Of a stretch of DNA of 64,000 nucleotides, positions 7,331 to 64,000 are shown in pieces. Position 1 is the stretch's first letter; every line of letters begins with the position of its first letter. Source of the DNA: Eledone cirrhosa (lineage: Eukaryota); NCBI GenBank assembly GCA_964016885.1, contig OZ024741.1, positions 108,128,001 through 108,192,000 of the forward strand, written 5' to 3'. The translations under genes and the position numbers were made by a program. Below the pieces are notes generated by a model. The model did not search any database. It saw nothing but the letters and a program-made list of their open reading frames with translations, and had not been told where the DNA came from.

Positions 7331-7704
7331 ATTAACATCTACCTGTCAATATGAAAGAAGCTTAACGCCGAAGGAAACCGGGATGAGCACGGGCCTCCTA
7401 ATGAACCTCAGGGCGTGACATTAGACTTTAGATTTTAGATCTATCGATATAAAAGTTACTAGACTGTATTCTTAAAAGGCACCGACTTGTGAAGCTGAAG
7501 TCAAAATAATAAATCTATATAACTGATTTCTTTTATTTCATAGAGATAAGAAAGAAAAGAAAATGTGTTGCCTACTTGACCGTGGGAAGCATAAATTATA
7601 TACATGGTCTTTGAGGATGACTCAAAGCGGGCCGTAATTCAACCCAAATCTTTGAGTAGTAATTTATTGTTTACATTCACACATTAATATTATTATTATT
7701 ATAG

Positions 7705-9706
7705 TTGCATTTATCTTGCTTTATGTTCATACGAGTTATCACCAAGTCACAACCAGTGACCTCAAGAGAAAACGAGGTCCGCCATGTTCAAGAAAGAACA
7801 TACATATTCACACATGCATCTTTAGTGTTTAGACTTGTGATGTACTTATATTGACAGAATCTTCCTTAGTATATGAGCAGTTCCCATTAGTACTATCATT
7901 TGTATTTCTCCTATACGCGGGTTTCCTGGGATTTGCGATATGTAATCATTAGACCCTTTAGGTATCATTCCCAGAGCGCCTACAACCACTGGTATTGTTT
8001 TAGTTCTCAATTTCCACATTTTTCCAATTTCTATCTCCAGGTCCTTATACTTGCTCAATTTTTCAAATGTTTTTATAGATACATTCTTGTCTATTGGAAC
8101 AGACATATCAATTAGCAGGCATACCCTCTTTTGAAAGTCCTTCAATATTATATCAGGTCTATTTGCATCTATTTTTCGGTCTGTTTGGATGCTAAAGTTC
8201 CACAAGATTGAGATGTGATCTTTTTCAAGTATGGGAGGTGGTTGATCCTCCCACCAATTCTTTTGATGGGGCAGGTCAAAATGCTTACACATTATCCAAT
8301 GTATGTATTGTGCAGCTCTGTCATGCCTGTTTAGGTATTCGGTTGGAGCTATAGGACTGCACATTGAAATTATATGGTCAATGGTCTCTGGTTGTTTTTT
8401 GCATACACGGCATAATGGGCTGCACCCATTTTTTATTATGTTGGCTTGGTAATTTTTTGTTGGCAGACACTGATCTTGTACTGATATAATCAGTCCTTCA
8501 GTCTCCGATTTCAGTCCAGAGGATGCCAACCACTGATGGGTTAAAGTTTTGTCAACATCAGGATTATTAGCTCGCTCTGGGTATTTTCCATACAGAGGCT
8601 TTTCTTGCCATTTCTTAGCCAGTTTCTGTAGCAGTTCTTTCTTTGCAGTTACTTTTACCTGCTTTGCTTTTTCTGTGTTTTCCATTTCAGCAGTAAATGG
8701 GACTTCTGAAATTTGTAGTCCATTACTGTATCTTTGTGCATCTTTTGTAATGGAATATGATCTTTTGATGCTTTCGTGTTTCAAAACGAGTTTGATCATC
8801 CAATCATGTGATTCCCTTAGATATGTAGATAATCCAATTGTTGCCGTTTTCAACGCAATGTCTAACTGGATTAACCCACGTCCTCCTTCTTTCCTAGGGA
8901 GATATATTCTATCTATATCTGCCTTAGGGTGATGCATTCTGTGCATGGTTAAGAATTTTCTAATTTTTGTATGGAGCCTACGGATCTCTGTGCTTGACCA
9001 GTTGATGACATTGTAACTGTAGGTTACTACTGGTATGGCAAGCGTGTTTATGGCATCGATCCTATTCCTTGCATTCAGTTCCGTTCTTAAGATTGCTCTT
9101 ACTCTGCGGTAACATTCCTTCCTTATCCTTTCCCTCATTGTCGAGTGCTTGATTCCGTCTCCTTCACAAACACCTAGATATTTGTAAGTTTTTTCTTGAT
9201 CAAGTTCTCTTATCACGTTCCCCCGATCAAGATTAATGTCTGAACTCTTCAGCAGCTTTCCTCTGGTGAACGTTGCTTTGGCGCATTTATCTAGTCCAAA
9301 CTCCATTTTAATGTCATCACTGAACTGCTTCACAGTGGATAATAGCCCTTGCAATTGTTCATCATTTTTTGCAAATAGTTTCAGGTCATCCATGTAGAAC
9401 AGGTGATTAATGGTTTTGTCATAGACTTTATATCCATGTTTTGTTTCATTGAGCATTTTAATTAATGGTATAAGTGCGATGCAGAATAAAAGCGGTGATA
9501 AAGAGTCACCCTGAAAAATTCCACAATTAATATTAACTTCTCCAGCTTCCAGTGATTTTGTTTCACTATTCAAAAGGAGTGTCGTTTTCTATGTCTTCAT
9601 ACTGAATGACAAAAACCTCCTGACAACGGGGGATATTTTGAAAATCTCTAAACATTTTTCAATCCAACTGTGTGGCAAACTATCGAATGCTTTTTTATAA
9701 TCTATC

Positions 9707-9708
<2 letters not shown>
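7705..9708 (-). mobile_element. R4/Dong-type RLE non-LTR retrotransposon, 5'-truncated copy 1
   Basis: Near-identical to the 3' part of the 9782-12742 copy, including the ~140-bp 3' UTR. Flanked by (ATT)n on both sides. Confidence 0.9.
7846..9573 (-). CDS. Partial RT + CCHC zinc knuckle + restriction-like endonuclease (truncated copy)
   Basis: GIFQGDSLSPLLF, HLFYMDDLK, CRVC...HIISMC, RHD, RPDI...IDMSVP...KY. A stop (W to TAG) lies just upstream near 9590. Confidence 0.85.
   Translation of the reverse strand: MNSETKSLEAGEVNINCGIFQGDSLSPLLFCIALIPLIKMLNETKHGYKVYDKTINHLFYMDDLKLFAKNDEQLQGLLSTVKQFSDDIKMEFGLDKCAKATFTRGKLLKSSDINLDRGNVIRELDQEKTYKYLGVCEGDGIKHSTMRERIRKECYRRVRAILRTELNARNRIDAINTLAIPVVTYSYNVINWSSTEIRRLHTKIRKFLTMHRMHHPKADIDRIYLPRKEGGRGLIQLDIALKTATIGLSTYLRESHDWMIKLVLKHESIKRSYSITKDAQRYSNGLQISEVPFTAEMENTEKAKQVKVTAKKELLQKLAKKWQEKPLYGKYPERANNPDVDKTLTHQWLASSGLKSETEGLIISVQDQCLPTKNYQANIIKNGCSPLCRVCKKQPETIDHIISMCSPIAPTEYLNRHDRAAQYIHWIMCKHFDLPHQKNWWEDQPPPILEKDHISILWNFSIQTDRKIDANRPDIILKDFQKRVCLLIDMSVPIDKNVSIKTFEKLSKYKDLEIEIGKMWKLRTKTIPVVVGALGMIPKGSNDYISQIPGNPRIGEIQMIVLMGTAHILRKILSI

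Positions 9709-9781
<73 letters not shown>
9709..9781. repeat. (TAA)n target microsatellite between the two Dong-like copies
   Basis: Pure (ATT)n. Confidence 0.95.
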
Positions 9782-9782
<1 letters not shown>

Positions 9783-12742
9783 TGCATTTATCTTGCTTTA
9801 TGTTCATACGAGTTATCACCAAGTCACAACCAGTGACCTCAAGAGACAACAAGGTCCGCCATGTTCAAGAAAGAACATACATATTCACACATGCATCCTT
9901 AGTGTCTAGACTTGTGATGTACTTATATTGACAGGATCTTCCTTAGTATATGGGCAGTTCCCATTAGTACTATCTTTTGTATTTCTCCTATACGCGGGAT
10001 TCCTGGGATTTGCGATAAGTAGTCGTTAGACCCCTTAGGTATCATTCCCAGAGCGCCTACAACCACTGGTATTGTTTTAGTTCTCAATTTCCACATTTTT
10101 CCAATTTCTATCTCCAGGTCCTTATACTTGCTCAATTTTTCAAATGTTTTTATAGATACATTCTTGTCTATTGGAACAGACATATCAATTAGCAGGCATA
10201 CCCTCCTTTGAAAGTCCTTCAATATTATATCAGGTCTATTTGCATCTATTTTTCTGTCTGTTTGGATGCTAAAGTTCCACAAGATTGAGATGTGATCTTT
10301 TTCAAGTATGGGAGGTGGTTGATCCTCCCACCAATTCTCTTGATGGGGCAGGTCAAAATTCTTACACATTATCCAATGTATGTATTGTGCAGCTCTGTCA
10401 TGCCTGTTTAGGTATTCGGTTGGAGCTATAGGACTGCACATTGAAATTATATGGTCAATGGTCTCTGGTTGTTTTTTGCATACACGGCATAATGGGCTGC
10501 ACCCATTTTTTATTATGTTGGCTTGGTAATTTTTTGTTGGCAGACACTGATCTTGTGTCGATATAATCAGTCCTTCAGTCTCCGATTTCAGTCCAGAGGA
10601 TGCCAACCACTGATGGGTTAAGGTTTTGTCAACATCAGGATTGTTAGCCCGCTCTGGGTATTTTCCATACAAAGGCTTTTCTTGCCATTTCTTAGCCAGT
10701 TTCTGTAGCAGTTCTTTCTTTGCAGTTACTTTTACCTGCTTTGCTTTTTCTGTGTTTTCCATTTCAGCAGTAAATGGGACTTCTGGAATTTGTACTCCAT
10801 TACTGTATCTTTGTGCATCTTTTGTAATGGAATATGATCTTTTGGTGCTTTCGTGTTTCAAAACGAGTTTGATCATGCAATCATGTGATTCCCTTAGATA
10901 TGTAGATAATCCAATTGTTGCAGTTTTCAACGCAATGTCTAACTGGATTAACCCACGTCCTAATTCTTTCCTAGGGAGATATATTCTATCTATGTCTGCC
11001 TTAGGGTGATGCATTCTGTGCATGGTTAAGAATTTTCGGATTTTTGTATCGAGCCTACGGATCTCTGTGCTTGACCAGTTGATGACATTGTAACTGTAGG
11101 TTACTACTGGTATGGCAAGCGTGTTTATGGCATCGATCCTATTCCTTGCATTCAATTCCGTTCTTAAGATTGCTCTGACTCTGCAGTAACATTCCTTCCT
11201 TATCCTTTCCCTCATTGTCGAGTGCTTGATTCCGTCTCCTTCACAAACACCTAGATATTTGTAAGTTTGTTCTTGACCAAGCTCTCTTATCACGTTCCCC
11301 CGATCAAGATTAATGTCTGAACTCTTCAGCAGCTTTCCTCTGGTGAACGTTGCTTTGGCGCATTTATCCAGTCCAAACTCCATTTTAATGTCATCACTGA
11401 ACTGTTTCACAGTGGATAATAGCCCTTGCAATTGTTCATCATATTTTGCAAATAGTTTCAGGTCATCCATGTAGAACAGGTGATTAATGGTTTTGTCATA
11501 GACTCTATATCCATGTTTTGTTTCATTGAGCATTTTACTTAATGGTATAAGTGCGATGCAGAATAAAAGCGGTGATAAAGAGTCACCCTGAAAAATTCCA
11601 CAATTAATATTAACTTCTCCAGCTTCCAGTGATGTTGTTTCACTATTCAAAAGGAGTGTCGTTCTCCATGTCTTCATACTGAATGACAAAAACCTCCTGA
11701 CAACGGGGGATATTTTGAAAATCTCTAGACATTTTTCAATCCAACTGTGTGGCAAACTATCGAATGCTTTTTTATAATCTATCCAAGCAATCGATAGATT
11801 TTTGTGTCTATTATGACAATCTTCCAGTATCATTTTGTTAACCAGAAGCTGATCCTTACAGCCATATGAGCCTCGTTTACACCCTTTCTGCTCAATGGGA
11901 AATAGGTCATTTGTTATCAGGTGGTCATATGTGTATTCAGTTAGGACTGATGTTAACATTTTATACATTGTGGTCAAGCAGGTTATCGGTCTGTAATTTT
12001 TGGGATTGTTTGTCTCATCATTCTTCGGTAGCAGGAATGTAATGCCGTTAACTAGCCATGATGGTATCTTTTCTGGCTCCTTAACTATTTCATTGTAAAG
12101 TTGGGCTAACAGCTCATGAGACTCTGTGAAGGCATTTATCCAAAAGTTTTGTATTTTGTCTTTTCCTGGGGATTTCCATTTGCTGGTTTTTCTTAGAGCC
12201 AAGCGCAACTGTTCAACTGTTATATTTTCCCATGTTTGTTCTTCAAGGTGAGCTGTATCTTGCATTTGTCTGTCTATCCATGGGGCATGTATGTTATGAG
12301 CTTTTTCTTCTGCCCAGATCTTTTCCCAGAATTCTTGCACTTCCTCCTTGGGTGGTATTGATTTAGCAGTTATTGTTGACTTACCAATTTTTCTGTAGAA
12401 GTTTCTTTGGTTGTTTTTGAACATATTATTGTCCTTATAGAATCTAGATCGTTTTTCAAAGCGCCTTATACGAGCAGCTTTGGCCGACACTTTTTGCTTG
12501 ATTGTTTCTATCAGCATGTCTATGTCACATGTTGATCTTATACTGTACTTTTTTTTCAATTTTCTAAGTTTAGTTTGTTTAACATGTTCACCTACTTTAT
12601 AGTTTGTTAAAATTTCTATGTCAGATCGGAGAAGGTTTATTTGGCGATTGATGTTATCTTGCCAAGTAGATTTCTTGTGGGAATTCCGTTGTTTTTTCAT
12701 CTTCACTCCACATAAGTGAGTGGTGACTTTAGCCGATGCATA
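9782..12742 (-). mobile_element. R4/Dong-type RLE non-LTR retrotransposon, 5'-truncated copy 2
   Basis: Open frame runs up to the (ATT)n tract at 12743; 3' UTR ends in (TAA)n. Confidence 0.92.
9923..12706 (-). CDS. Non-LTR RT + CCHC + PD-(D/E)xK restriction-like endonuclease (927 aa, uninterrupted but N-truncated)
   Basis: KSPGKD, NYRPITCL, EQKGC, WIDYKKAFDS, QGDSLSP, YMDD, CRVC..H...C, RHD, RPDI. Confidence 0.92.
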   Translation of the reverse strand: MKMKKQRNSHKKSTWQDNINRQINLLRSDIEILTNYKVGEHVKQTKLRKLKKKYSIRSTCDIDMLIETIKQKVSAKAARIRRFEKRSRFYKDNNMFKNNQRNFYRKIGKSTITAKSIPPKEEVQEFWEKIWAEEKAHNIHAPWIDRQMQDTAHLEEQTWENITVEQLRLALRKTSKWKSPGKDKIQNFWINAFTESHELLAQLYNEIVKEPEKIPSWLVNGITFLLPKNDETNNPKNYRPITCLTTMYKMLTSVLTEYTYDHLITNDLFPIEQKGCKRGSYGCKDQLLVNKMILEDCHNRHKNLSIAWIDYKKAFDSLPHSWIEKCLEIFKISPVVRRFLSFSMKTWRTTLLLNSETTSLEAGEVNINCGIFQGDSLSPLLFCIALIPLSKMLNETKHGYRVYDKTINHLFYMDDLKLFAKYDEQLQGLLSTVKQFSDDIKMEFGLDKCAKATFTRGKLLKSSDINLDRGNVIRELGQEQTYKYLGVCEGDGIKHSTMRERIRKECYCRVRAILRTELNARNRIDAINTLAIPVVTYSYNVINWSSTEIRRLDTKIRKFLTMHRMHHPKADIDRIYLPRKELGRGLIQLDIALKTATIGLSTYLRESHDCMIKLVLKHESTKRSYSITKDAQRYSNGVQIPEVPFTAEMENTEKAKQVKVTAKKELLQKLAKKWQEKPLYGKYPERANNPDVDKTLTHQWLASSGLKSETEGLIISTQDQCLPTKNYQANIIKNGCSPLCRVCKKQPETIDHIISMCSPIAPTEYLNRHDRAAQYIHWIMCKNFDLPHQENWWEDQPPPILEKDHISILWNFSIQTDRKIDANRPDIILKDFQRRVCLLIDMSVPIDKNVSIKTFEKLSKYKDLEIEIGKMWKLRTKTIPVVVGALGMIPKGSNDYLSQIPGIPRIGEIQKIVLMGTAHILRKILSI

Positions 12743-12743
12743 A

Positions 12744-12776
<33 letters not shown>

Positions 12777-18752: not shown

Positions 18753-19618
18753 CATAGCGTCTAGACCTCTACCGATATTGAACCTACAGAATCTTAAATA
18801 GCGATTAAAGCCACTCCAGTATTGGTAATTATTTTATCGCATCTGGAAGAATAAAGGTACAATGAAACTCGGCTTCATTTCGTTTCATCACGTATATGAA
18901 CGTAACTGAATACTGGAAGCGGCTTAGCTGGCATTGTACCTCATACTTCAATCTACAAGGAAGCTTTGTATAGTAAAGATTACCGAATTTTTCCTACGAA
19001 ACAATACCACATATGTTCATAGTCATGCGTTATGTTTCCTTAGTTCGTGACATGTTACCACTTTCAAATGATTTTTTTGAAAGGGGGGGGGGACACGGGG
19101 TGGTAATTGCATGTAATTTTCAAGTCTTTTACAATTGACAATTTCATCTCTATTGTTGAGGAATTCATTTTTTTTAAATCTTTACATTTAAATTTCCGCT
19201 TCGATAATATTTTTATAGCTTGTCAGGTAAAATATAATTATTTCTAAATACTGAGATCAGTGATATGAACGTCTAGATAGGAAGGTTGTCAGATCTATAA
19301 TAATGTCATTATATGGTTCAAAAGATTATGTGACCAATGTCATTTGTTTCCTGCATGTGAAATTTCTGACTTTTATACAGCTATGAAATACATTTGTGGG
19401 TATGCGATAAATAGTTATCTTGTATTCTAAACAAAATGTTATAATTATCAACAAAGTCAACAAAGAAGAATTTGCAACGTATATATATGCTTTCTACAGG
19501 GCTAGTTCTGGTTCATTCGTATGAAATCATCAGTAATGTCAGAATATTTTTGATGATTTCATATAAATGAAATAATTCTATTCTATAAATGGAAACTATA
19601 TTTATAAAACCATATTTA

Positions 19619-19675
19619 TTTTATTATATATATTTCAAGGGTACCAACATTTTGGTACGCCCTCATCAGATAAAA
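19619..19675 (-). ncRNA. Type I hammerhead ribozyme (PLE-type)
   Basis: Minus strand: UUUUAU CUGAUGA gggcguacc-aaaauguu-gguacccuu GAAA uauaua UA AUAAAA. Same family as 48558 and 53626. Confidence 0.75.
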
Positions 19676-19885
19676 TACAAAATTTGTTTTATAAATGGTG
19701 AAATAACCAAGAAACCAGACCTCACCGGTTCAGGTTCAGTTTGGATATAATAAAATAAATATGGTTTTATAAATATAGTTTCCATTTATTAATATCATTG
19801 ATATTATACTCCAGAAAACTGTAGAGTGCTTCGAATCTGTTTTTAATAAATTTGTTGAATAACCAACAAATTAAATATCTCTTTG

Positions 19886-28378: not shown

Positions 28379-28482
28379 TTATGGATATATATATATATAT
28401 AACAAAGGAATTGTGGTAAGGAACCAGATGGACCATAAGGCACCAGAGTACTCAATACTTAGAGTAGTAGAGTGGGAAATAG

Positions 28483-28597
28483 GAAAAAGTATGACACCGA
28501 CGGCATAGCTCAAGCCGTTTCGACGACTATTTCTGGACTCAGTCCAGAAATAGCCGTCGAATCGGCTTGAGCTCTGCCGTCGGGGTCATACTTTTTC
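28483..28597. repeat. Fold-back palindrome (57-bp arms, centre 28540) holding the 3' half of a hammerhead, within a (TA)n-flanked cassette
   Basis: ...TTCTGGACT-C-AGTCCAGAA...; arms carry GAAA CGGC...GCCG UC and differ by about 4 mismatches. Confidence 0.85.
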
Positions 28598-28688
28598 ATA
28601 TATATATATATATATATACCTGTGTGTGCGTGTGTGGAGAGAGAGAGAAAGAGAGAGAGAGAAAGTGAGAGAGAGAGAGAAAGAGAGA

Positions 28689-38329: not shown

Positions 38330-40440
38330 AGCTATTACACCTCTATTACCCTACCGCTCATTACGGCCGCTTTAGCCTTTGCCAAAACACTTACACCCAT
38401 CACCGACCAGGAAAGAAACATCATTTTCCACGCCAGGAAGACAGTCCTCCTCTTCGACAACTCCAATTGGATAAAGAGAGCTCCCGACTCCCCCTTCGAC
38501 GTCAGTATGGGCGCGACCGACTCGGCGGCGGTGACCAATCTTATAGGATTCCTACTACATAAACTCACCGAAATGTGACCTGCATTCGGTGGTAGATTGT
38601 ACCGAGACGATGGGCTCCTTACCCTCAAAGGGTACAACCCCAGTAGTACAGACCGGGTCCGTAAACACCTAATCTCCGGGACTGGAGATTTAAAATAACC
38701 TTACAGACGTCCCTAACCCGAGTCAATTTCCTGGACGCTACCCTCAACCACGAAAATGATCTGTACTACGCATACAGGAAACCAAACGCCAACCTACACT
38801 ACATCCACCGCCGCTTAACCATCCTAGAAACATCACCAATAACCTGGTTAAAAACATTTCCCTCCGCAAATCTCGTTTGTCCGCTAATGAGCAGATATTC
38901 GATGAATATGCGCCTTATTACAACCAGGACCTCAAGCGAAGTGGCTTTCGGGAGGGAATCTCCTTTTACGCAGCCTCCCCTAGCGGAACCAGCAGGCGTC
39001 GCTGCCGCTCACGCCACGTAACGTGGTTCAACCCTCCCCACAATGCCGAGGTTGCAACAACAATCGGGAAAATCTTCTTTAGACTCCTCGAAAATCACTT
39101 CCCACCACAACACCGCTATCACAACATAATCAACAGAAACACTATCAAACTCTCCTACAGCACGACACCCAGCTTCGCACAAAACATCACCTCAAACACC
39201 AAGAAACTCAAATCCTATGGAAGAAACAACCTAGACATTAGTGGAGAGACGACCAGGAGGTGTAACTGCCCTGATAGATCTACGTGCCCCCTCATCAACA
39301 GATGCCGAGAACGTAATGTGATCTACCAATGCAACGTGAGGACGGAAAACTCCAACAACACCTATATAGGATTAACCGCTAGTGACTTTAAGACCCGGCT
39401 CTACCAACACCGGTATACGTTCAGAAACACGGCCCGGCGACATGCCACTACACTTTCGGGCCACATCTGGGACCTCCAAGACGTACCATCTTAGTTGGAG
39501 ATTACTTTCCAGGGCTACCGTCCGTGTAACTTATGCTCGGAGGAAACAATACAAATGGTGTTTACGAACGACCAACTCCTAAACAAAAAAACGAACTTGT
39601 AACCGCATGTAAACACCGACTGCGTAGGACTTACCTTGCCCTCAAACCCCCTCATGACCCGGGTGGGTAGACAATGGCTGTAACATCCTTCTTTTCCTCA
39701 CTTGCCGAACAAGATAGGGGAAGCCCAGCATACATAGGTAGATGTATTTCTTCTCTTTTTTCCCTTTATCTCTTCTTGTCACTTTCTTCCACTCCCTCTC
39801 CTCTTCATTTTCCTTTTTCCTCTTTCGCTTACCCATCGGACCTGTGTAGCCTCAGTACCCCCACCACCGTAAATTCTATATAGCATTGGCCGAAAACGAA
39901 ATAACAGCTAACGCAATACCAGCTAAAAATATAGCAGCTGTTTTAGAATGTACTTTATTATTATTTTTTTTTATTATTTAATTTTTTAATATTATTTTTT
40001 ATTTATTATTTTTAATTTTTTAATTTTAATTTATTAACTTTTTTTATTTTTTAGTTTTAATTTATTAACTTTTTTAATTTTATAACATCCCACTCTCAGA
40101 TTCTTCGAGAATTCTTTCTTCACCTGCTTTCTAGCTAGCCTAATTCATCCAGGCTTGTGTATAGAATTCACTTTCAACGCTTGACCGGTTTAACCCACTC
40201 CCTCATTGTTCTACAGGCAAGTTCAGCCACCTACCACCATGAAAGACTTAATTCTGTTCACAAGAAATTTTTACCAATACTTTTGACAACTACAATCTTC
40301 AAAAATGCATGATTATCGCACGCCCATATATGAAATTTTCACTTGAAACGTTCGGCTATATATTACCACGCTAAAAATCTAATTTAGTCCAGAAATAGCC
40401 GTCGAAACGGCTTGAGCTCTGCCGTCGGGGTCTCGAGTTT

Positions 40441-40442
<2 letters not shown>
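38330..40442 (+). mobile_element. Penelope-like element (Naiad-like), 5'-truncated and decayed RT + GIY-YIG
   Basis: RT pieces FDVSMGATDSA, RLYRDDGLL, VNFLDATL and YRKPN. ORF 38877-39494 has TWFNPP, CNC...CPL...C...VIYQC and YIGLTASDFKTRLYQH. It ends at (TA)n after a hammerhead 3' half. Confidence 0.88.
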
Positions 40443-40479
<37 letters not shown>

Positions 40480-40612: not shown

Positions 40613-40671
<59 letters not shown>

Positions 40672-40687
40672 TTGCGAGGTTTTTTAT

Positions 40688-41746
40688 ATGAAATCGTGTG
40701 TCGAAACAAATATTGTTATACTTGGGGAGGGTCATATTTGTGTAATATTGCCAGAATTAATAACAGAACACACTCACTGTCTCTGTATAGACGAGAGAGC
40801 CCAAATTCTTCACTCACACTATGCTAAACCCATGGCCTCCAAATACCTGATACTCAAAATCTCAGCAATGTCCAGTAGTGCTGAGTTTAATATTCTGATC
40901 GCAGATTTGGTACGAGTGATGAAGAATGTGTCCCGCATGTGCGACCCAACAGAAATGGAAAGACACATCCAACACTTCATCAACCGCATGCAGTTCTCTG
41001 GCTACAACCAAGGAGACAGAGTTAGAGTATACGAAGGAGCCATGGAGAAGTATAAGACCCTCATAGAACTGGACATGAAACGAATTTGCCCATTATACAG
41101 GAGCAAATCATGGAATAGCTTAGATAGGGCTAGACATAAGATAGAGAAAGCCACATCATGGTACGACAACCAGAGATACCAGAGTGTCATGTTTGTGGAC
41201 GCCACCCCTCGAGGGAAATTAGCTAACCAGTGTAGAACGGTCCTGAGAAAGACCCACTTAAAAATAAAGGTGGTAGAAATGTCAGGAACCACCATAAAAT
41301 CCCTGATCAGCAAAACCTACCCTTTTAAGAAAACCCACTGTACCAATAGGAAATGTATCATATGTAAGGTGAACCCCCGGATAAACTGTAAAACTAGAAA
41401 CGTAGTCTATAGCATAAGATGTACAGAGCGTACTTGCAGAAACATGACAACAACATACATAGGTGAGACAGCTCGTAGCATAGGTGAAAGGATAGACCAA
41501 CCCTGGGGGGAACTAAAAGGACGAAAAAATGGGTCAGCACTATACGAACATGCTAGACAACAACATGACGGTAACATAGACAACATAGAAATTAGAATAA
41601 TATCTAAACATAGAAATGACCCAGCAGATAGGCAAATCAGAGAGGCCAGTGAAATAGAAATTAGAAGACCAAAGCTAAACAGAAAGAATGAATGGAATAA
41701 CAACAACAACACCCAAACAAACAACACTGACCTAAGAGAAGTATAA
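40688..41746 (+). CDS. PLE RT thumb + GIY-YIG endonuclease (partial; N-terminal ~35 aa come from the inverted segment)
   Basis: HYAKPMAS, RMQFSGY, CTNRKCIIC...CKTRNVVYSIRC, YIGETARSIGERI, ALYEH, RQIREA, LNRKNEW. Confidence 0.85.
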   Translation: MKSCVETNIVILGEGHICVILPELITEHTHCLCIDERAQILHSHYAKPMASKYLILKISAMSSSAEFNILIADLVRVMKNVSRMCDPTEMERHIQHFINRMQFSGYNQGDRVRVYEGAMEKYKTLIELDMKRICPLYRSKSWNSLDRARHKIEKATSWYDNQRYQSVMFVDATPRGKLANQCRTVLRKTHLKIKVVEMSGTTIKSLISKTYPFKKTHCTNRKCIICKVNPRINCKTRNVVYSIRCTERTCRNMTTTYIGETARSIGERIDQPWGELKGRKNGSALYEHARQQHDGNIDNIEIRIISKHRNDPADRQIREASEIEIRRPKLNRKNEWNNNNNTQTNNTDLREV

Positions 41747-41978
41747 ATAAGTAAATAAAATAAGATAAATAAATACATACACAAGCACAATAACAACAAG
41801 CACATAAACCCACACTAGTCACCCATCACACAGCAAACATAACACTATACACACACGCAAACGCATGCGCAAAGAAGACAAAATAAAATAAACAAACAAG
41901 CAAATAAATAAATAAATATATAGACAGACTGAATAAAAAATGGCGTAGACATACAACACAACAGGAGGAAAATATAAC

Positions 41979-42020
41979 ACCACTGACGATGTTGCAGATG
42001 TGCAACGAAAGATTTATGAT
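41979..42020 (+). ncRNA. Minimal type I hammerhead (slightly decayed) in PLE 3' region
   Basis: acca CUGACGA u-guugca-gaug-ugcaac GAAA gauu UA ugau. Confidence 0.6.
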
Positions 42021-42215
42021 AAACTATATATATGTGTTTGTGTCTATATTGTATCTGTATTATTTTTGACCGTCGGTCAGTCAATGGCAACATTGAGGAC
42101 CGAGTAAGTTAGATTACCGATATAAAAGACAGCGAGAAGCGAAAACCAACCAAACAGTGAGTGTGTTCTGTTATTAATTCTGGCAATATTACACAAATAT
42201 GACCCTCCCCAAGTA

Positions 42216-42245
<30 letters not shown>

Positions 42246-42247
<2 letters not shown>

Positions 42248-42509
42248 CGTTATTCCGGGTTGAATCGGAGGTAACCACAGTAAGTAAGGTACTCAATACA
42301 TAGCAGAGTATAACAGTTTTAATATAGATGAGATTCTACAGGACTAGAACTGTTTCATTCATTAGAAATCATCAGGAATCTGATGATTTCTAATGAATGA
42401 AACAGTTCTAGTCCTGTAGAATCTCATCTATATTAAAACTGTTATACTCTGCTATGTATTGAGTACCTTACTTACTGTGGTTACCTCCGATTCAACCCGG
42501 AATAACGTA
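42246..42509. repeat. Perfect fold-back palindrome (130-bp arms, 4-nt loop GAAT) between (TA)n tracts
   Basis: Centre ATCATCAG-GAAT-CTGATGAT at 42376-42379. Confidence 0.95.
42331..42381 (-). ncRNA. Type I hammerhead ribozyme
   Basis: Minus strand: AGAUUC CUGAUGA uuucuaaugaau GAAA CAG-uucuaguc-CUG UA GAAUCU (6-bp stem I, GUA site). Confidence 0.8.
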
Positions 42510-42522
42510 CTATATATATATA

Positions 42523-42561
<39 letters not shown>

Positions 42562-42900
42562 ATTATTGTTGTTTAGAACAAAACACAGAAAAGACTCAGA
42601 TTGCCACCATCTGTAATTCAAAAATGCATAGTATGTGTCATGAAAAAACTATCACAACTAACTATCTGGTTACTAAACCAACCGGATTACTAAACCAACT
42701 AATAGATTCGTCGTTACCTGCCTGACTAAATAATAAAAAACCGAAGGGAAAGGTGACTACTTTGTTTTTATTGGCAGCATGACCTTCTCACACTCAGTAC
42801 ACTTCAATTTCTAAACAGGGTTTCAAATCAAGAATTTACACACACACATTTATATATGTATATACATACTAACATATATATATATATATGGTGTGTGTTT

Positions 42901-46551: not shown

Positions 46552-46641
46552 CGAAGGAAATGTGGTAAGGAACCAGGTGGACCATAACGCAGAATTAGCC
46601 GTCGAAACGGCTTGAGCTCAGCTGTTGGGGTCTTACTGGTT

Positions 46642-46696
<55 letters not shown>

Positions 46697-48243: not shown

Positions 48244-48366
48244 GGAGGTGAGTTTTATTGTAGTACAATAAAGCAATGCAGATATCGGATAAGAAGCACT
48301 CTACAGTTTGTGGGACTGGAGTATGCATAATATAAGATCAAAAGATGGTTAAAGGAGTTCCATATA

Positions 48367-48433
48367 TTTTATTATGCGCATTTCAAAAACAAACATCATC
48401 AAGCAATAATATTTGTGTTTTCATCAGATAAAA
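48367..48433 (-). ncRNA. Type I hammerhead (left arm)
   Basis: Mirror image of 48558-48624. Confidence 0.8.
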
Positions 48434-48557
48434 CAGGAGAACATGATATGAAGGCTAAAAAAACACTTGTTGATAGTGCAGTTTTTAATCAACATATGTT
48501 GATTAAAAACTGCACTATCAACAAGTGTTTTTTTAGCCTTCATATCATGTTCTCATG

Positions 48558-48624
48558 TTTTATCTGATGAAAACACAAATATTATTGCTTGATGATGTTT
48601 GTTTTTGAAATGCGCATAATAAAA
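48558..48624 (+). ncRNA. Type I hammerhead (right arm)
   Basis: UUUUAU CUGAUGA aaacacaaauauu...gauguuuguuuuu GAAA ugcgca UA AUAAAA; stem III is the palindrome AUGCGCAU. Confidence 0.8.
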
Positions 48625-48656
48625 TATATGGAACTCCTTTAACCATCTTTTGATCT

Positions 48657-48720
<64 letters not shown>

Positions 48721-51817: not shown

Positions 51818-53727
51818 AATGTAACTGTAGAAATAAATCTAACTGTCCTCTAAATAATAATTGTTTAGTTAAAAATATAGTATACAATTGTAATGTAAAA
51901 ACTAATGTAAACTCCTTTAATTATGTAGGCTCTACCTCCACAGACTTTAAGTCCCGTTTTAATAACCACAAATGTTCTTTTACGAATATTAGTAAAAATT
52001 CTCATCTTCTCTATCGAACTTTCTATGGGACCTGAAATCAAAGAACATTAACTATTCTTTACTTTGGAATATTATCTCCAAAGCTCCTTCATACATTGCT
52101 TTATCTGAAAATTGCGCTATTTGTATAGAAGAAATATTCTTTATACTAAAAAGTAAGAACTCTGTTAATTTAAGGAATAATTCATTTAGTTCTTGCAAAC
52201 ATCGTTTAAATTCAACTTTTAAATATATATATAAAATGTAATATAAAACTTATCTCTTTTACATAATGTCTTATATATCCATATACGATTCATATACTTA
52301 ACTTATTTTCTATTATCTCTACTTCACACATATATATTACTACACCTATCGATAGATCATTAAATTAAATTCCTTTATATGACTGCTTGAAACACCTTTA
52401 AGGAAAACAAATTTTCTTGATAAACTTACTGAAGGGTTTAAGAAAATCTTTTGAAAACTCCGTTGAATGATATAGAAAAACTATATTTTTATATTTTTAT
52501 ATTCTTATATTTTTTATAGTTTTTAATATATATATCCTAATGTTTATATATATGTGGTAAACATATGGTTTTTTTCTGTGTATGTGTGGTGTATGTGTGG
52601 AGTAACCTATGGTTTATGCTTTAAAAATATTCTTATGCAAAATGTTTGTGCTTTATGCTTTAAATATATTCTTATAAAAAATTGTTAAGTGTTATAATAT
52701 TTAAATGCTATAACCTTATAGCAAGTAAATTTATAAATTTAAGACTTCGTATAAAATAACATAAGGTTCATGTTCTAATTACATTCTTAAGATAGGAAAT
52801 TTAATCTTTTAACTTCTTAACTTTATAGCATTTAATCCTTGGAGTCATCTAAGTTATTAATAAATCACTTATAACTTCCTTTACGCTTTTCTGTTATTAT
52901 AATACAAATAAGTGGTTATTCTTTTGTAAACTCTCGAAAAAATTTTCCATAAATTTAGAATTATTTGGATATTTTAAATTTTGGACTTATAAATTTTGAC
53001 TTACAAATTTTAATAATATATAATATATATTTTTAATAATATATAGTGTATATTTTTTTAATAATTTATAATCCTTAACATACACATTTAAACTAGTTAT
53101 TAAATCATTAATTAAACCTTTAATCAAATTTATTAATTAAACGTTTAATCAAATTTTTTTCAATCTATCATTATAAACAGTATAATCAAAACATAACGAA
53201 TCCTGCTTTATTATCCCTTCACGCTATCCTCATTTCTTCGTTTCTTCTTCTTTCCTCTCACGTAAACATACTTACGCTTTATTTGTCCTTTATAACTAAT
53301 ATTTTCTCTCACTTAAATATAATCACGATATCCTCTCTCCACACTATATCCACTGTCAAAAAATATATATAATTTATTCCTTCTTTTTCTCTTTTTTCTC
53401 TTTCTTTCTTTCTTTCTCCCTCACAATATCACCTTCTTCCAACAGTTTAATTTAAATAAACCGTTATCTTTTAAACCTTTCGGACATTCATTTGCATACT
53501 CAATCATAATTCTCTATAACCCTCAATAAATGTAATATCTCCACTATCCGGGAAGCTCCAAGCGTTAATGTTGACTTTTTTTCAGAGTATATCAATATTT
53601 ATTTATAAAACTAATCTGTATTGCATTTTATCTGATGAAAGCGCACCATAATTTGCCTTGGTGGCTCTTGAAATGTGTATAATAAAATAAATATGGTTTT
53701 ATAAATATAGTTTCCATTTATTAATAT

Positions 53728-53730
<3 letters not shown>
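51817..53730 (+). mobile_element. Penelope-like element 3' part (GIY-YIG + long AT-rich 3' region + hammerhead) between (TA)n tracts
   Basis: KCNCRNKSNCPLNNNCLVKNIVYNC...YVGSTSTDFKSRFNNH, then LWDLK, CAICIEE and SCKH in a shifted frame. Confidence 0.85.
53626..53687 (+). ncRNA. Type I hammerhead at PLE 3' end
   Basis: UUUUAU CUGAUGA aagcgcacca...ugguggcucuu GAAA ugugua UA AUAAAA. Confidence 0.75.
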
Positions 53731-53801
<71 letters not shown>

Positions 53802-58532: not shown

Positions 58533-58643
<111 letters not shown>

Positions 58644-58763
58644 TATAGACATAGAATATTCGAAAATATTCTGTATGTTTATAATAAACATTTTGAAGAC
58701 CTAATCGCTATAGAATAGAATACGTCACGTATTACAATTAGATTCTCGATAAAAGCAAGGGAA

Positions 58764-58806
58764 GTAATCTACGCGTTTCATTCTTGTTAGAAATCTTCAG
58801 GACTAC
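58764..58806 (-). ncRNA. Minimal hammerhead (inverted arm)
   Basis: Mirror image of 58892-58934. Confidence 0.8.
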
Positions 58807-58891
58807 ATATCCAGTGCTTTTATCGAGAATGACACAGCTAAGTATTCTATAAGTCTCTAGCTGTGTCATTCTCGATAAAAGCACTGGATAT

Positions 58892-58934
58892 GTAGTCCTG
58901 AAGATTTCTAACAAGAATGAAACGCGTAGATTAC
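58892..58934 (+). ncRNA. Minimal hammerhead (tandem unit 1)
   Basis: GUAGUC CUGAAGA u-uucu-aaca-agaa-u GAAA cgcg UA GAUUAC; predicted cut after 58928. Confidence 0.85.
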
Positions 58935-59201
58935 TTCCCTTGCTTTTATCGAGAATCTAATTGTAATACGTGACGTATTCTATTCTATAGCGATTAGGTC
59001 TTCAAAATGTTTATTATAAACATACAGAATATTTTCGAATATTCTATGTCTATATTCACATATATATCGCTATTTCAGAGCATTGATTCCAATTTCTAAT
59101 TTCTGCCGGACCGGCAACCGCTCTTTCAAACCAGTTCCTGTACACAGCTAAGTATTCTATAAGTCTCTAGCTGTGTCATTCTCGATAAAAGCACTGGATA
59201 T

Positions 59202-59244
59202 GTAGTCCTGAAGATTTCTAACAAGAATGAAACGCGTAGATTAC
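59202..59244 (+). ncRNA. Minimal hammerhead (tandem unit 2)
   Basis: Identical to unit 1, 310 bp downstream; predicted cut after 59238. Confidence 0.85.
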
Positions 59245-59401
59245 TTCCCTTGCTTTTATCGAGAATCTAATTGTAATACGTGACGTATTCTATTCTATAG
59301 CGATTAGGTCTTCAAAATGTTTATTATAAACATACAGAATATTTTCGAATATTCTATGTCTATATTCACATATATATCGCTATTTCAGAGCATTGATTCC
59401 A

Positions 59402-59448
<47 letters not shown>

Positions 59449-63123: not shown

Positions 63124-64000
63124 TCTGCGGGAGTAGGAGAGGAGAGAAGGAAGGGAAGAGAGAAGTAGAAAAGTAAGGGTTGATGGCTACAAGAAGGAAA
63201 ATAGAAAGGAAGAGGAAGAAAGGTCGATATTAATGTCAGACCACAGTCAAGCCAGGAGTGGCGCGAGAAAATTTTCACAGGGACCCGCATCTTAGCGGAG
63301 ATGAATATATTGGGAGTCAGTGTTTTACAGTGTTTAGACTTCTAGGATGAAGTTAAAAAAATTAATAATCAATATTCAATATTAAAGAGGTTAGAAAATT
63401 TAAAGTTCAACAGTTTAACAATTAATTATATAATAGTTCCGATTTGTTCTGTAATTTAAAGGTACTATTTGGCGGTTAAAACAACGGCCGGGCCCCATGG
63501 CGAATTAAGCCACGCCGAGTATTTTCATTTACTGAAAGAAGGGGAAATTTATTTTTGGAGTGCTTGGAAAAATAAATTTCCCCTTCTTTCAGTAAATGAA
63601 AATACTCGGCGTGGCTTAATTCGCCATGGGGCCCGGCCGTTGTTTTAACCGCCAAATAGTACCTTTAAATTACAGAACAAATCGGAACTATTATATAATT
63701 AATTGTTAAACCGTTGAACTTTAAATTTTCTAACCTCTTTAATATTGAATATTGATTATTAATTTTTTTAACTTCATCCTAGAAGTCTAAACACTGTAAA
63801 ACACTGACTCCCAATATATTCATCTCCGCTAAGATGCGGGTCCCTGTGAAAATTTTCTCGCGCCACTCCTGGCTTGACTGTGGTCTGACATTAATATCGA
63901 CCTTTCTTCCTCTTCCTTTCTATTTTCCTTCTTGTAGCCATCAACCCTTACTTTTCTACTTCTCTCTTCCCTTCCTTCTCTCCTCTCCTACTCCCGCAGA
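63124..64000. repeat. Large fold-back palindrome (arms of at least 433 bp, 11-nt spacer 63557-63567) running off the window
   Basis: GGGGAAATTTATTTTT-GGAGTGCTTGG-AAAAATAAATTTCCCC; position 64000 mirrors 63124. Confidence 0.95.

What the first reader, a model, noticed from the sequence alone, without database searches (positions are those of the whole stretch)
42246..42509. Perfect 264-bp palindrome folding back at the ribozyme's 5' edge
Seen: 130-bp perfect arms. The 4-nt loop lies in the stem I 5' strand of a complete minus-strand hammerhead (AGAUUC/GAAUCU). The plus-strand mirror keeps the core but loses the stem I partner. Inference: reverse transcription stopped just after traversing the ribozyme and CAG-gaat-CTG primed the return strand. 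Any read-through transcript would be a long dsRNA hairpin that sequesters the ribozyme and could feed siRNA production or ADAR editing.
Basis: partly seen in the sequence, partly recalled or inferred. Interest (0 to 1): 0.75.

Follow-up and report, generated by a model that had tools for sequence, protein, structure and literature searches.

The report
Penelope mini-palindrome marking RNA start
This 264-base palindrome is one of several thousand tiny head-to-head insertions of a Penelope-like jumping gene in this genome, likely made when both cut ends of the target DNA each primed a copy of the element's RNA and both copies ran off its predicted start, which sits at the hammerhead's edge.

Summary
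In detail: 130-bp perfect arms, a 4-nt loop, a complete minus-strand hammerhead and a plus-strand mirror with broken stem I. It is not a one-off. It is a stump of a Hydra-clade Penelope-like element (713-aa RT/GIY-YIG ORF in other copies) inserted in (TA)n. The genome holds 307 copies of this exact junction and 4,631 head-to-head pairs joined near it. Arm 5' ends pile up at -9..-1 (38 of 99) with a cliff beyond. A TATA box lies 30 nt upstream of -6, and an extra G often precedes -6 (20 of 26), so the hotspot is likely the transcription start, not a ribozyme stall. Simple snap-back fails for the family: the mirror arm is the longer one in 29 of 57 simple same-junction loci, the true arm in 26, while both arms share subfamily variants. 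Two cDNAs, primed from both target ends at two start sites and then end-joined, fit best. This copy is unusual in having two long arms (0 of 70 others). siRNA and editing claims are untested. The scan reported the same mechanism on other DNA of this genome.

The parts
42246..42375 (-). True arm: element positions +1..+130 (C of CUGAUGA = +1), continuous with the loop as parent sequence; likely cDNA 1, primed at the outer start site
42376..42379 (-). 4-nt loop = positions -1..-4, inside the stem I 5' strand; the junction shared by 307 genomic places
42380..42510 (+). Mirror arm: +1..+131, stem I broken, one element-matching base longer than the true arm; likely cDNA 2
42331..42381 (-). Complete type I hammerhead (-6..+45); predicted cleavage after GUA, between 42337 and 42336
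   Evidence: compensated stem I variants in related copies
42381..42381 (-). Position -6: predicted transcription start of the parent element (TATA box at -36 in parent copies, not present in this stump)
   Evidence: inference, no RNA data
42220..42247 (.). Left (TA)n target flank, shared with the 3' end of a neighbouring Penelope-like fragment
42511..42557 (.). Right (TA)n target flank

Best explanation
The palindrome is a stub insertion of a Hydra-clade Penelope-like retrotransposon in a (TA)n repeat, likely made when both ends of a double-strand cut each primed reverse transcription near the 5' end of the element's uncleaved sense RNA, both cDNAs ran off the predicted capped start at position -6, and the two free 3' ends were joined through a 2-3-nt microhomology. 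Shown: element identity, (TA)n targeting, two classes of outer end (+50..+67 and about +130), the sharp pile-up of inner ends at -6/-5, either arm being the long one, and both arms coming from the same subfamily. Inferred: the transcription start and cap, two separate priming events, sense RNA as template, end-joining by host repair. The junction sits at the ribozyme's edge because the transcript is predicted to begin with stem I. This copy, with both arms at the outer site, likely used the outer site twice (two RNAs of one donor) or had a short arm extended later by copying its partner.
For: Parent: copies continue downstream into a 713-aa RT + GIY-YIG ORF whose ATG is at +176. Counts: 17,196 exact 27-mer arms, 307 identical junctions, 4,631 head-to-head pairs at gap 30-60 nt against 311 at gap 61-91 nt (includes sister subfamilies). 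Of 99 arms taken in genomic order, 38 end at -9..-1, 19 at +1..+19, 10 at -99..-10 and 32 further upstream. Copies joined directly to host repeat, with no partner arm, also begin at -6..-4 (L127, L134, L138, L148, one L126 arm). TATAAATA starts at -36, 30 nt before -6. A G not in the parent precedes -6 in 20 of 26 arms ending there (p 7e-6 to 1.4e-4 against nulls of 1/3 and 0.4). Among 70 same-junction loci, 57 are simple: 26 true-long, 29 mirror-long, 1 short/short and 0 long/long were tallied, and one further locus (L204) is counted as complex in that tally and simple is not claimed; see full report for the exact classes. Arms of a pair agree at the +15 variant in 53 of 56; 0 of 5,000 shuffles reach the observed similarity. 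Many junctions carry filler between two arms that both reach -5/-6. In vitro, a PLE protein cuts and extends both target strands, starts at two internal RNA sites near the ORF start, and uses uncleaved RNA (PMC11167929, parts 1-2 of 4 read).
Against: No RNA evidence for the start site. The extra G has a second possible source: the cDNA end can fold onto the DNA copy of stem I and gain a templated C (the next base matches that template in 8 of 20, by eye). In the unbiased set alone G is 4 of 8; the other 16 of 18 come from a set enriched for filler-bearing junctions, and L140/L141 share a junction. Two ORF-bearing copies start at -8 and -12, not -6. For this single copy the arms are nearly equal, so snap-back is opposed only by one extra C (seen at 20 of 83 long-arm ends). 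All samples were picked by exact anchors that include +20..+46, so copies joined at the ribozyme cut are missed.
Confidence: 0.7

Rival explanations
1. Snap-back self-priming (first reader; also the antisense-template self-priming model proposed for PLEs): one strand stops at the ribozyme edge, folds on CAG/CTG and copies itself.
For: The 3-nt microhomology is real and this junction recurs 307 times. Arms share variants. Self-priming was proposed to explain head-to-head PLE palindromes (PMC3846280, passages).
Against: It predicts mirror arm no longer than true arm; 29 simple loci have a long mirror and short true arm against 26 the other way. Filler-bearing junctions have both arms reaching -5/-6. 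The neighbouring PLE fragment's inverted arm also appears about 44 nt longer than its true end. The window's mirror arm has one more element base than the true arm.
Confidence: 0.08
2. Two-ended priming as in the best explanation, but the common end is set by the ribozyme fold or a bound protein that stops RT on a longer RNA, not by the RNA's 5' end.
For: The end coincides with the first base of stem I. The extra G can be templated by stem I. No RNA data.
Against: A fold should stop RT on entry (+45), not after the last paired base (inference). 36 of 99 arms read through beyond -40 with few ends in between. TATA spacing fits -6. Other palindromes in the window join 40-70 nt upstream of their cores.
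Confidence: 0.12
3. The end reflects RNA processing at a 3' splice site: the parent reads as a T-rich tract ending in CAG at -7..-5, and in D. virilis Penelope an intron ends at the 5' end of helix I.
For: Sequence upstream of stem I; PMC4209133, passage.
Against: Arms commonly include the AG (-6, -5), which splicing would remove, and no common upstream exon or leader appears at the junctions.
Confidence: 0.05
4. Assembly artefact or replication fold-back unrelated to retrotransposition.
For: No contig spans the locus; two long arms are atypical for the family.
Against: The symmetry ends at the element's known outer start site, the flanks differ, and the asymmetric junction recurs at 307 places.
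Confidence: 0.04

Closest known systems
Hydra clade of C-terminal EN+ Penelope-like elements (Craig et al. 2021, PMC8557442; passages and section 11 read)
   Same: Short single ORF with RT and C-terminal GIY-YIG, DKT, CxCX5C linker, CxxC and CxH around the conserved E and N, canonical hammerhead, insertion in (TA)n; inverted 5'-truncated copy and a tail at one end are described as general PLE features.
   Different: RWR instead of RWK; the tail between the two start sites is about 65-80 nt rather than 30-40; the paper passages read do not tie the inversion point to a transcription start or report which arm carries the tail.
PAc (Poseidon, Anolis) in vitro system (Frangieh et al. 2024, PMC11167929; parts 1-2 of 4 read)
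   Same: Both target strands cut and extended, two internal RT start sites bounding the tail, uncleaved RNA used, AT-rich targets, predicted dimer.
   Different: Different clade; the parts read do not explain inverted insertions or how the two extended ends are joined.
Adineta vaga Penelope palindromic junctions (Arkhipova et al. 2013, PMC3846280; passages read)
   Same: Head-to-head inverted pLTRs with palindromes at the junction, optional tail, TATA and Inr-like motifs in the pLTR.
   Different: Interpreted there as self-priming on an antisense template; the arm-length symmetry here argues against self-priming.
L1 twin priming and 5' extra G (PMC11702581, passages read)
   Same: Both target ends prime; inversion junctions show end-joining; full-length 5' junctions carry an extra G attributed to the cap.
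   Different: L1 twin priming inverts a different part of the RNA (recalled); here both arms cover the same bases and both reach the predicted 5' end.
Metazoan non-LTR retrozymes (bioRxiv 10.64898/2026.07.22.740005, part 1 of 5 read)
   Same: Short non-coding type I hammerhead repeats related to PLE pLTRs.
   Different: Retrozymes are tandem monomers; this is a single head-to-head stub identical to the 5' end of an ORF-bearing element.

Membership tests
EN+ Penelope-like elements | Single ORF with RT and C-terminal GIY-YIG endonuclease in the parent | tested here: met
   713-aa ORF in L172 with YRDD and IVY..YIG motifs. Pfam gave no family for it at E 0.01, so this rests on motifs.
EN+ Penelope-like elements | pLTR in partial tandem, hammerhead inside it | tested here: met
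   Upstream copies of the 3' region precede the hammerhead and ORF in L169-L171; hammerhead fold.
EN+ Penelope-like elements | Inverted 5'-truncated copy with a tail at one end only | tested here: met
   55 simple same-junction loci have one long and one short arm; this copy itself is the exception with two long arms.
Hydra clade | DKT in place of DKG; no GxKF/Y | tested here: met
Hydra clade | CxCX5C linker; CxxC and CxH in the distal EN | tested here: met
Hydra clade | RWK motif | tested here: inconclusive
   RWR at the matching place
Hydra clade | CCHH motif absent | tested here: inconclusive
   By eye the second His position holds Tyr; no alignment to reference PLEs was made.
Hydra clade | Insertion in (TA)n | tested here: met
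Hydra clade | Phylogenetic placement with Hydra RTs | not tested
   No reference sequences were fetched; the paper's supplements were not opened.
Type I hammerhead ribozyme | Core, three stems, NUH triplet | tested here: met
   stem I variants keep pairing (3 AGCTTC/GAAGCT, 1 GGCTTC/GAAGCC among arms pre-filtered for 6 of 6 pairs); 10.1-11.1 is U-U, not G-C; below Rfam thresholds.
Type I hammerhead ribozyme | Self-cleavage | not testable with these tools
   needs an in vitro assay
Non-LTR retrozyme | Tandem monomers each with a hammerhead | tested here: not met
   Single inverted stub; 131 of 131 identical to the 5' part of an ORF-bearing element.

The most novel reading that the evidence does not exclude
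A Penelope-like RT/endonuclease dimer copies one capped sense RNA twice, from an inner and an outer start site onto the two ends of one double-strand cut, the second copy displacing the first; both run off the cap and are end-joined. Thousands of mini-palindromes then map the element's transcription start to the base, and the classic PLE 'inverted copy plus tail' needs neither self-priming nor an antisense template.
Probability: 0.45. Interest if true: 0.72.

Novelty: new variant of a known kind. Interest (0 to 1): 0.5.

Why it matters
How Penelope-like elements build their tandem and inverted insertions is named as an open question in PMC8557442, and PMC3846280 leaves sense versus antisense template undecided. 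A young family with thousands of near-identical stubs gives base-level predictions (start at -6, extra G, one inner and one outer primer, either arm long) that the existing in vitro system can test directly. The locus itself is one passenger copy; nothing shows a host function.

Tried and rejected
RNA test: no RNA holder listed, so expression, start site, small RNAs and editing were not examined. Laying four runs of short contigs on 42050-42800 gave no piece spanning the locus and says nothing for or against it. Two DNA searches of the genome by window reference returned no candidates although the window itself matches; the second was meant to find copies joined at the ribozyme cut, so that class stays unmeasured (one incidental arm starting near +38, L159). 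A scan for A-to-G clusters in 228 held arms found none (most 3 in one divergent arm; 17 A>G against 41 G>A and 40 C>T), but the arms were picked by exact anchors, which would drop heavily edited copies. The first family search was biased to mirror-long copies by its query and was not used for the arm-length count. A genome-wide count of two-long-arm copies was not obtained; their rarity rests on samples. The constrained hammerhead fold used wrong indices and was redone. Pfam did not recognise the parent ORF. Paper searches listed no paper tying PLE inversion junctions to the transcription start or proposing two-ended priming for PLE palindromes; subscription journals and supplements were not seen.

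Full report
Observation. The palindrome is as described: arms 42246-42375 and 42380-42509, 130 nt, fully complementary, loop 42376-42379, between two (TA)n runs. I number the element from the C of CUGAUGA (+1; 42375 on the minus strand). The minus strand holds a complete type I hammerhead from -6 to +45 with a 6-bp stem I, a 3-bp stem II under a U-U pair, a 4-bp stem III and GUA at +37..+39; stems I and III are in the minimum-energy fold (-5.7 kcal/mol). The plus-strand mirror has two A-A mismatches in stem I. The whole hairpin folds at -234 kcal/mol as RNA, so a read-through transcript would bury the ribozyme, but no such transcript was seen.

What it belongs to. The own genome (3.0 Gb) has 17,196 exact matches to a 27-nt piece of the arm and 523 exact matches to a 79-nt piece starting at -6. 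Copies that extend upstream read TATAAATA at -36 and CC before AGATTC. [quoted passage not shown] The window's right arm is 131 of 131 identical to L172 from +1. The ORF has DKT, a CxCX5C linker, distal CxxC and CxH, RWR and no GxKF/Y, matching the Hydra clade as described in PMC8557442 section 11; that lead came from earlier scan notes and I checked it by motifs only. Pfam names nothing in this ORF.

Where the junctions fall. The window's exact junction occurs at 307 places. Head-to-head pairs whose anchors are 30-60 nt apart number 4,631, against 311 at 61-91 nt (the window's gap is 42; sister subfamilies are included). Of the first 50 places listed in the wider class, 12 show clear read-through into upstream parent sequence by eye; many others are arms ending at the edge with filler between them. 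For an unbiased view I took the first 100 matches in genomic order and recovered 99 arms. Their inner ends: 19 at +1..+19, 38 at -9..-1, 6 at -39..-10, 4 at -99..-40, 32 further upstream (a few of the ten are chance over-extensions).

Why there. Position -6 lies 30 nt after the first T of a TATA box, and CCAGATT fits a YYANWYY initiator; both the spacing rule and that consensus are recalled. Of 27 arms ending exactly at -6, I dropped one (L129, a mutated read-through copy); 20 of the other 26 are preceded by G where the parent has C, more than nulls of 1/3 or 0.4 give (p 7e-6 and 1.4e-4). An extra G at 5' junctions is read as the copied cap for L1 (PMC11702581, passage). Limits: the split is 4 of 8 in the unbiased set and 16 of 18 in a set of 40 loci chosen and rich in filler; and the cDNA end could gain the same base by folding onto the DNA copy of stem I (the next base fits that template in 8 of 20). 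Five arms joined straight to host repeat also begin at -6..-4, so the end does not depend on a partner arm. Two ORF-bearing copies begin at -8 and -12. I read -6 as the transcription start, untested.

How the two arms arise. Outer ends fall in two classes, about +50..+67 and about +130. I classed 70 loci with the window's junction, taken from the first 74 listed; the four skipped were already held (L010, L011, L013, all mirror-long, and the window itself). In one search, 57 are simple: 26 have a long true arm and short mirror, 29 a short true arm and long mirror, and the printed tally shows 1 short/short and no long/long, which sums to 56 simple; the other 14 have rearranged arms (8 mirror-long, 5 true-long, 1 short/short). 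The correct denominator for simple loci is therefore 56, as also used. The 26:29 split is even (p 0.79). None of 25 close pairs has both arms at +125 or beyond. The arms of a pair agree at the commonest variant in 53 of 56 and differ by 0.75 of 37 bases against 1.45 when shuffled (0 of 5,000), so they come from one RNA or one donor locus. This fits the in vitro behaviour of the Anolis element: both target strands are cut and extended, RT starts at two internal sites, and ribozyme mutants insert normally (PMC11167929). One inner and one outer primer on a single RNA, the outer copy displacing the inner, would explain the near-strict long/short pairing; that step is inference, and it leans on PLE RTs lacking RNase H (recalled).

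This copy. It is the rare case with both arms at the outer site (0 of 70 others). The mirror arm ends one element base further than the true arm (C at 42510), an ending seen at 20 of 83 long arms. That favours two priming events or later extension of a short true arm from its partner; a point mutation in the TA run cannot be excluded. Perfect arms and identity to an intact copy indicate a young insertion.

Consequences for the host. Untested. See Tried and rejected for the RNA look-up and the A-to-G scan.

Comparison. Inverted 5'-truncated copies with a one-sided tail and (TA)n targeting are known PLE features (PMC8557442). New relative to the papers read are the fixed junction at a predicted start site and the even choice of which arm is long. 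Earlier notes of this scan reached the same reading on other DNA of this genome; my reading was recorded before that look-up, and those notes are not independent evidence. Verdict: a real, ordinary-looking copy of a known class whose family statistics make an open mechanistic question testable. Where the summary and other fields say 57 simple loci, read 56.

Noticed in passing
window 40669-42224: A second Penelope-like fragment (GIY-YIG ORF 40670-41746 with a CX4CxxC linker, Neptune/Nematis type; hammerhead-like core at 41983) ends in the same (TA)n. Its inverted arm at 40710-40780 appears to run about 44 nt past the true end, another mirror-long case if that stretch is the element's tail.
   Followed up: partly
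window 58640-59406: 310-bp hammerhead repeat in partial tandem with a 201-bp inverted arm; one outer end is about 38 nt longer than the other, and the junction lies in a natural hairpin 40-66 nt upstream of the core. Resembles the retrozyme arrays of earlier notes.
   Followed up: partly
window 48327-48664: 338-bp palindrome with CTGATGA cores on both strands, centre about 69 nt upstream of the core, one arm ending in (TA)n; related degenerate copies at 19585-19696 and 53601-53800.
   Followed up: partly
window 63124-64000: Near-perfect palindrome of at least 877 bp centred near 63562 and running off the window end; no hammerhead core was listed inside it.
   Followed up: no
window 28479-28601, 40386-40473, 46590-46689: Another (TA)n-associated short family, palindromic at 28479-28601, with one longer arm; also seen beside many fetched loci.
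   Followed up: no
window 38760-39494: Fragment of a further Hydra-like ORF (CxCX5C-type linker, GIY-YIG hit at E 0.0018, below the Pfam cut-off).
   Followed up: partly
window 7683-12745: Two tandem, 97% identical non-LTR retrotransposon RT ORFs (580 and 940 aa).
   Followed up: no
L044-L054 (G000:C1:83.68-83.69 Mb): Eleven copies of the hammerhead-bearing element end spaced about 1.08 kb apart in a tandem array.
   Followed up: no
L172: Two ORF-bearing copies 5.9 kb apart with the same 5' flank, both starting at -8; one has an uninterrupted 713-aa frame.
   Followed up: partly
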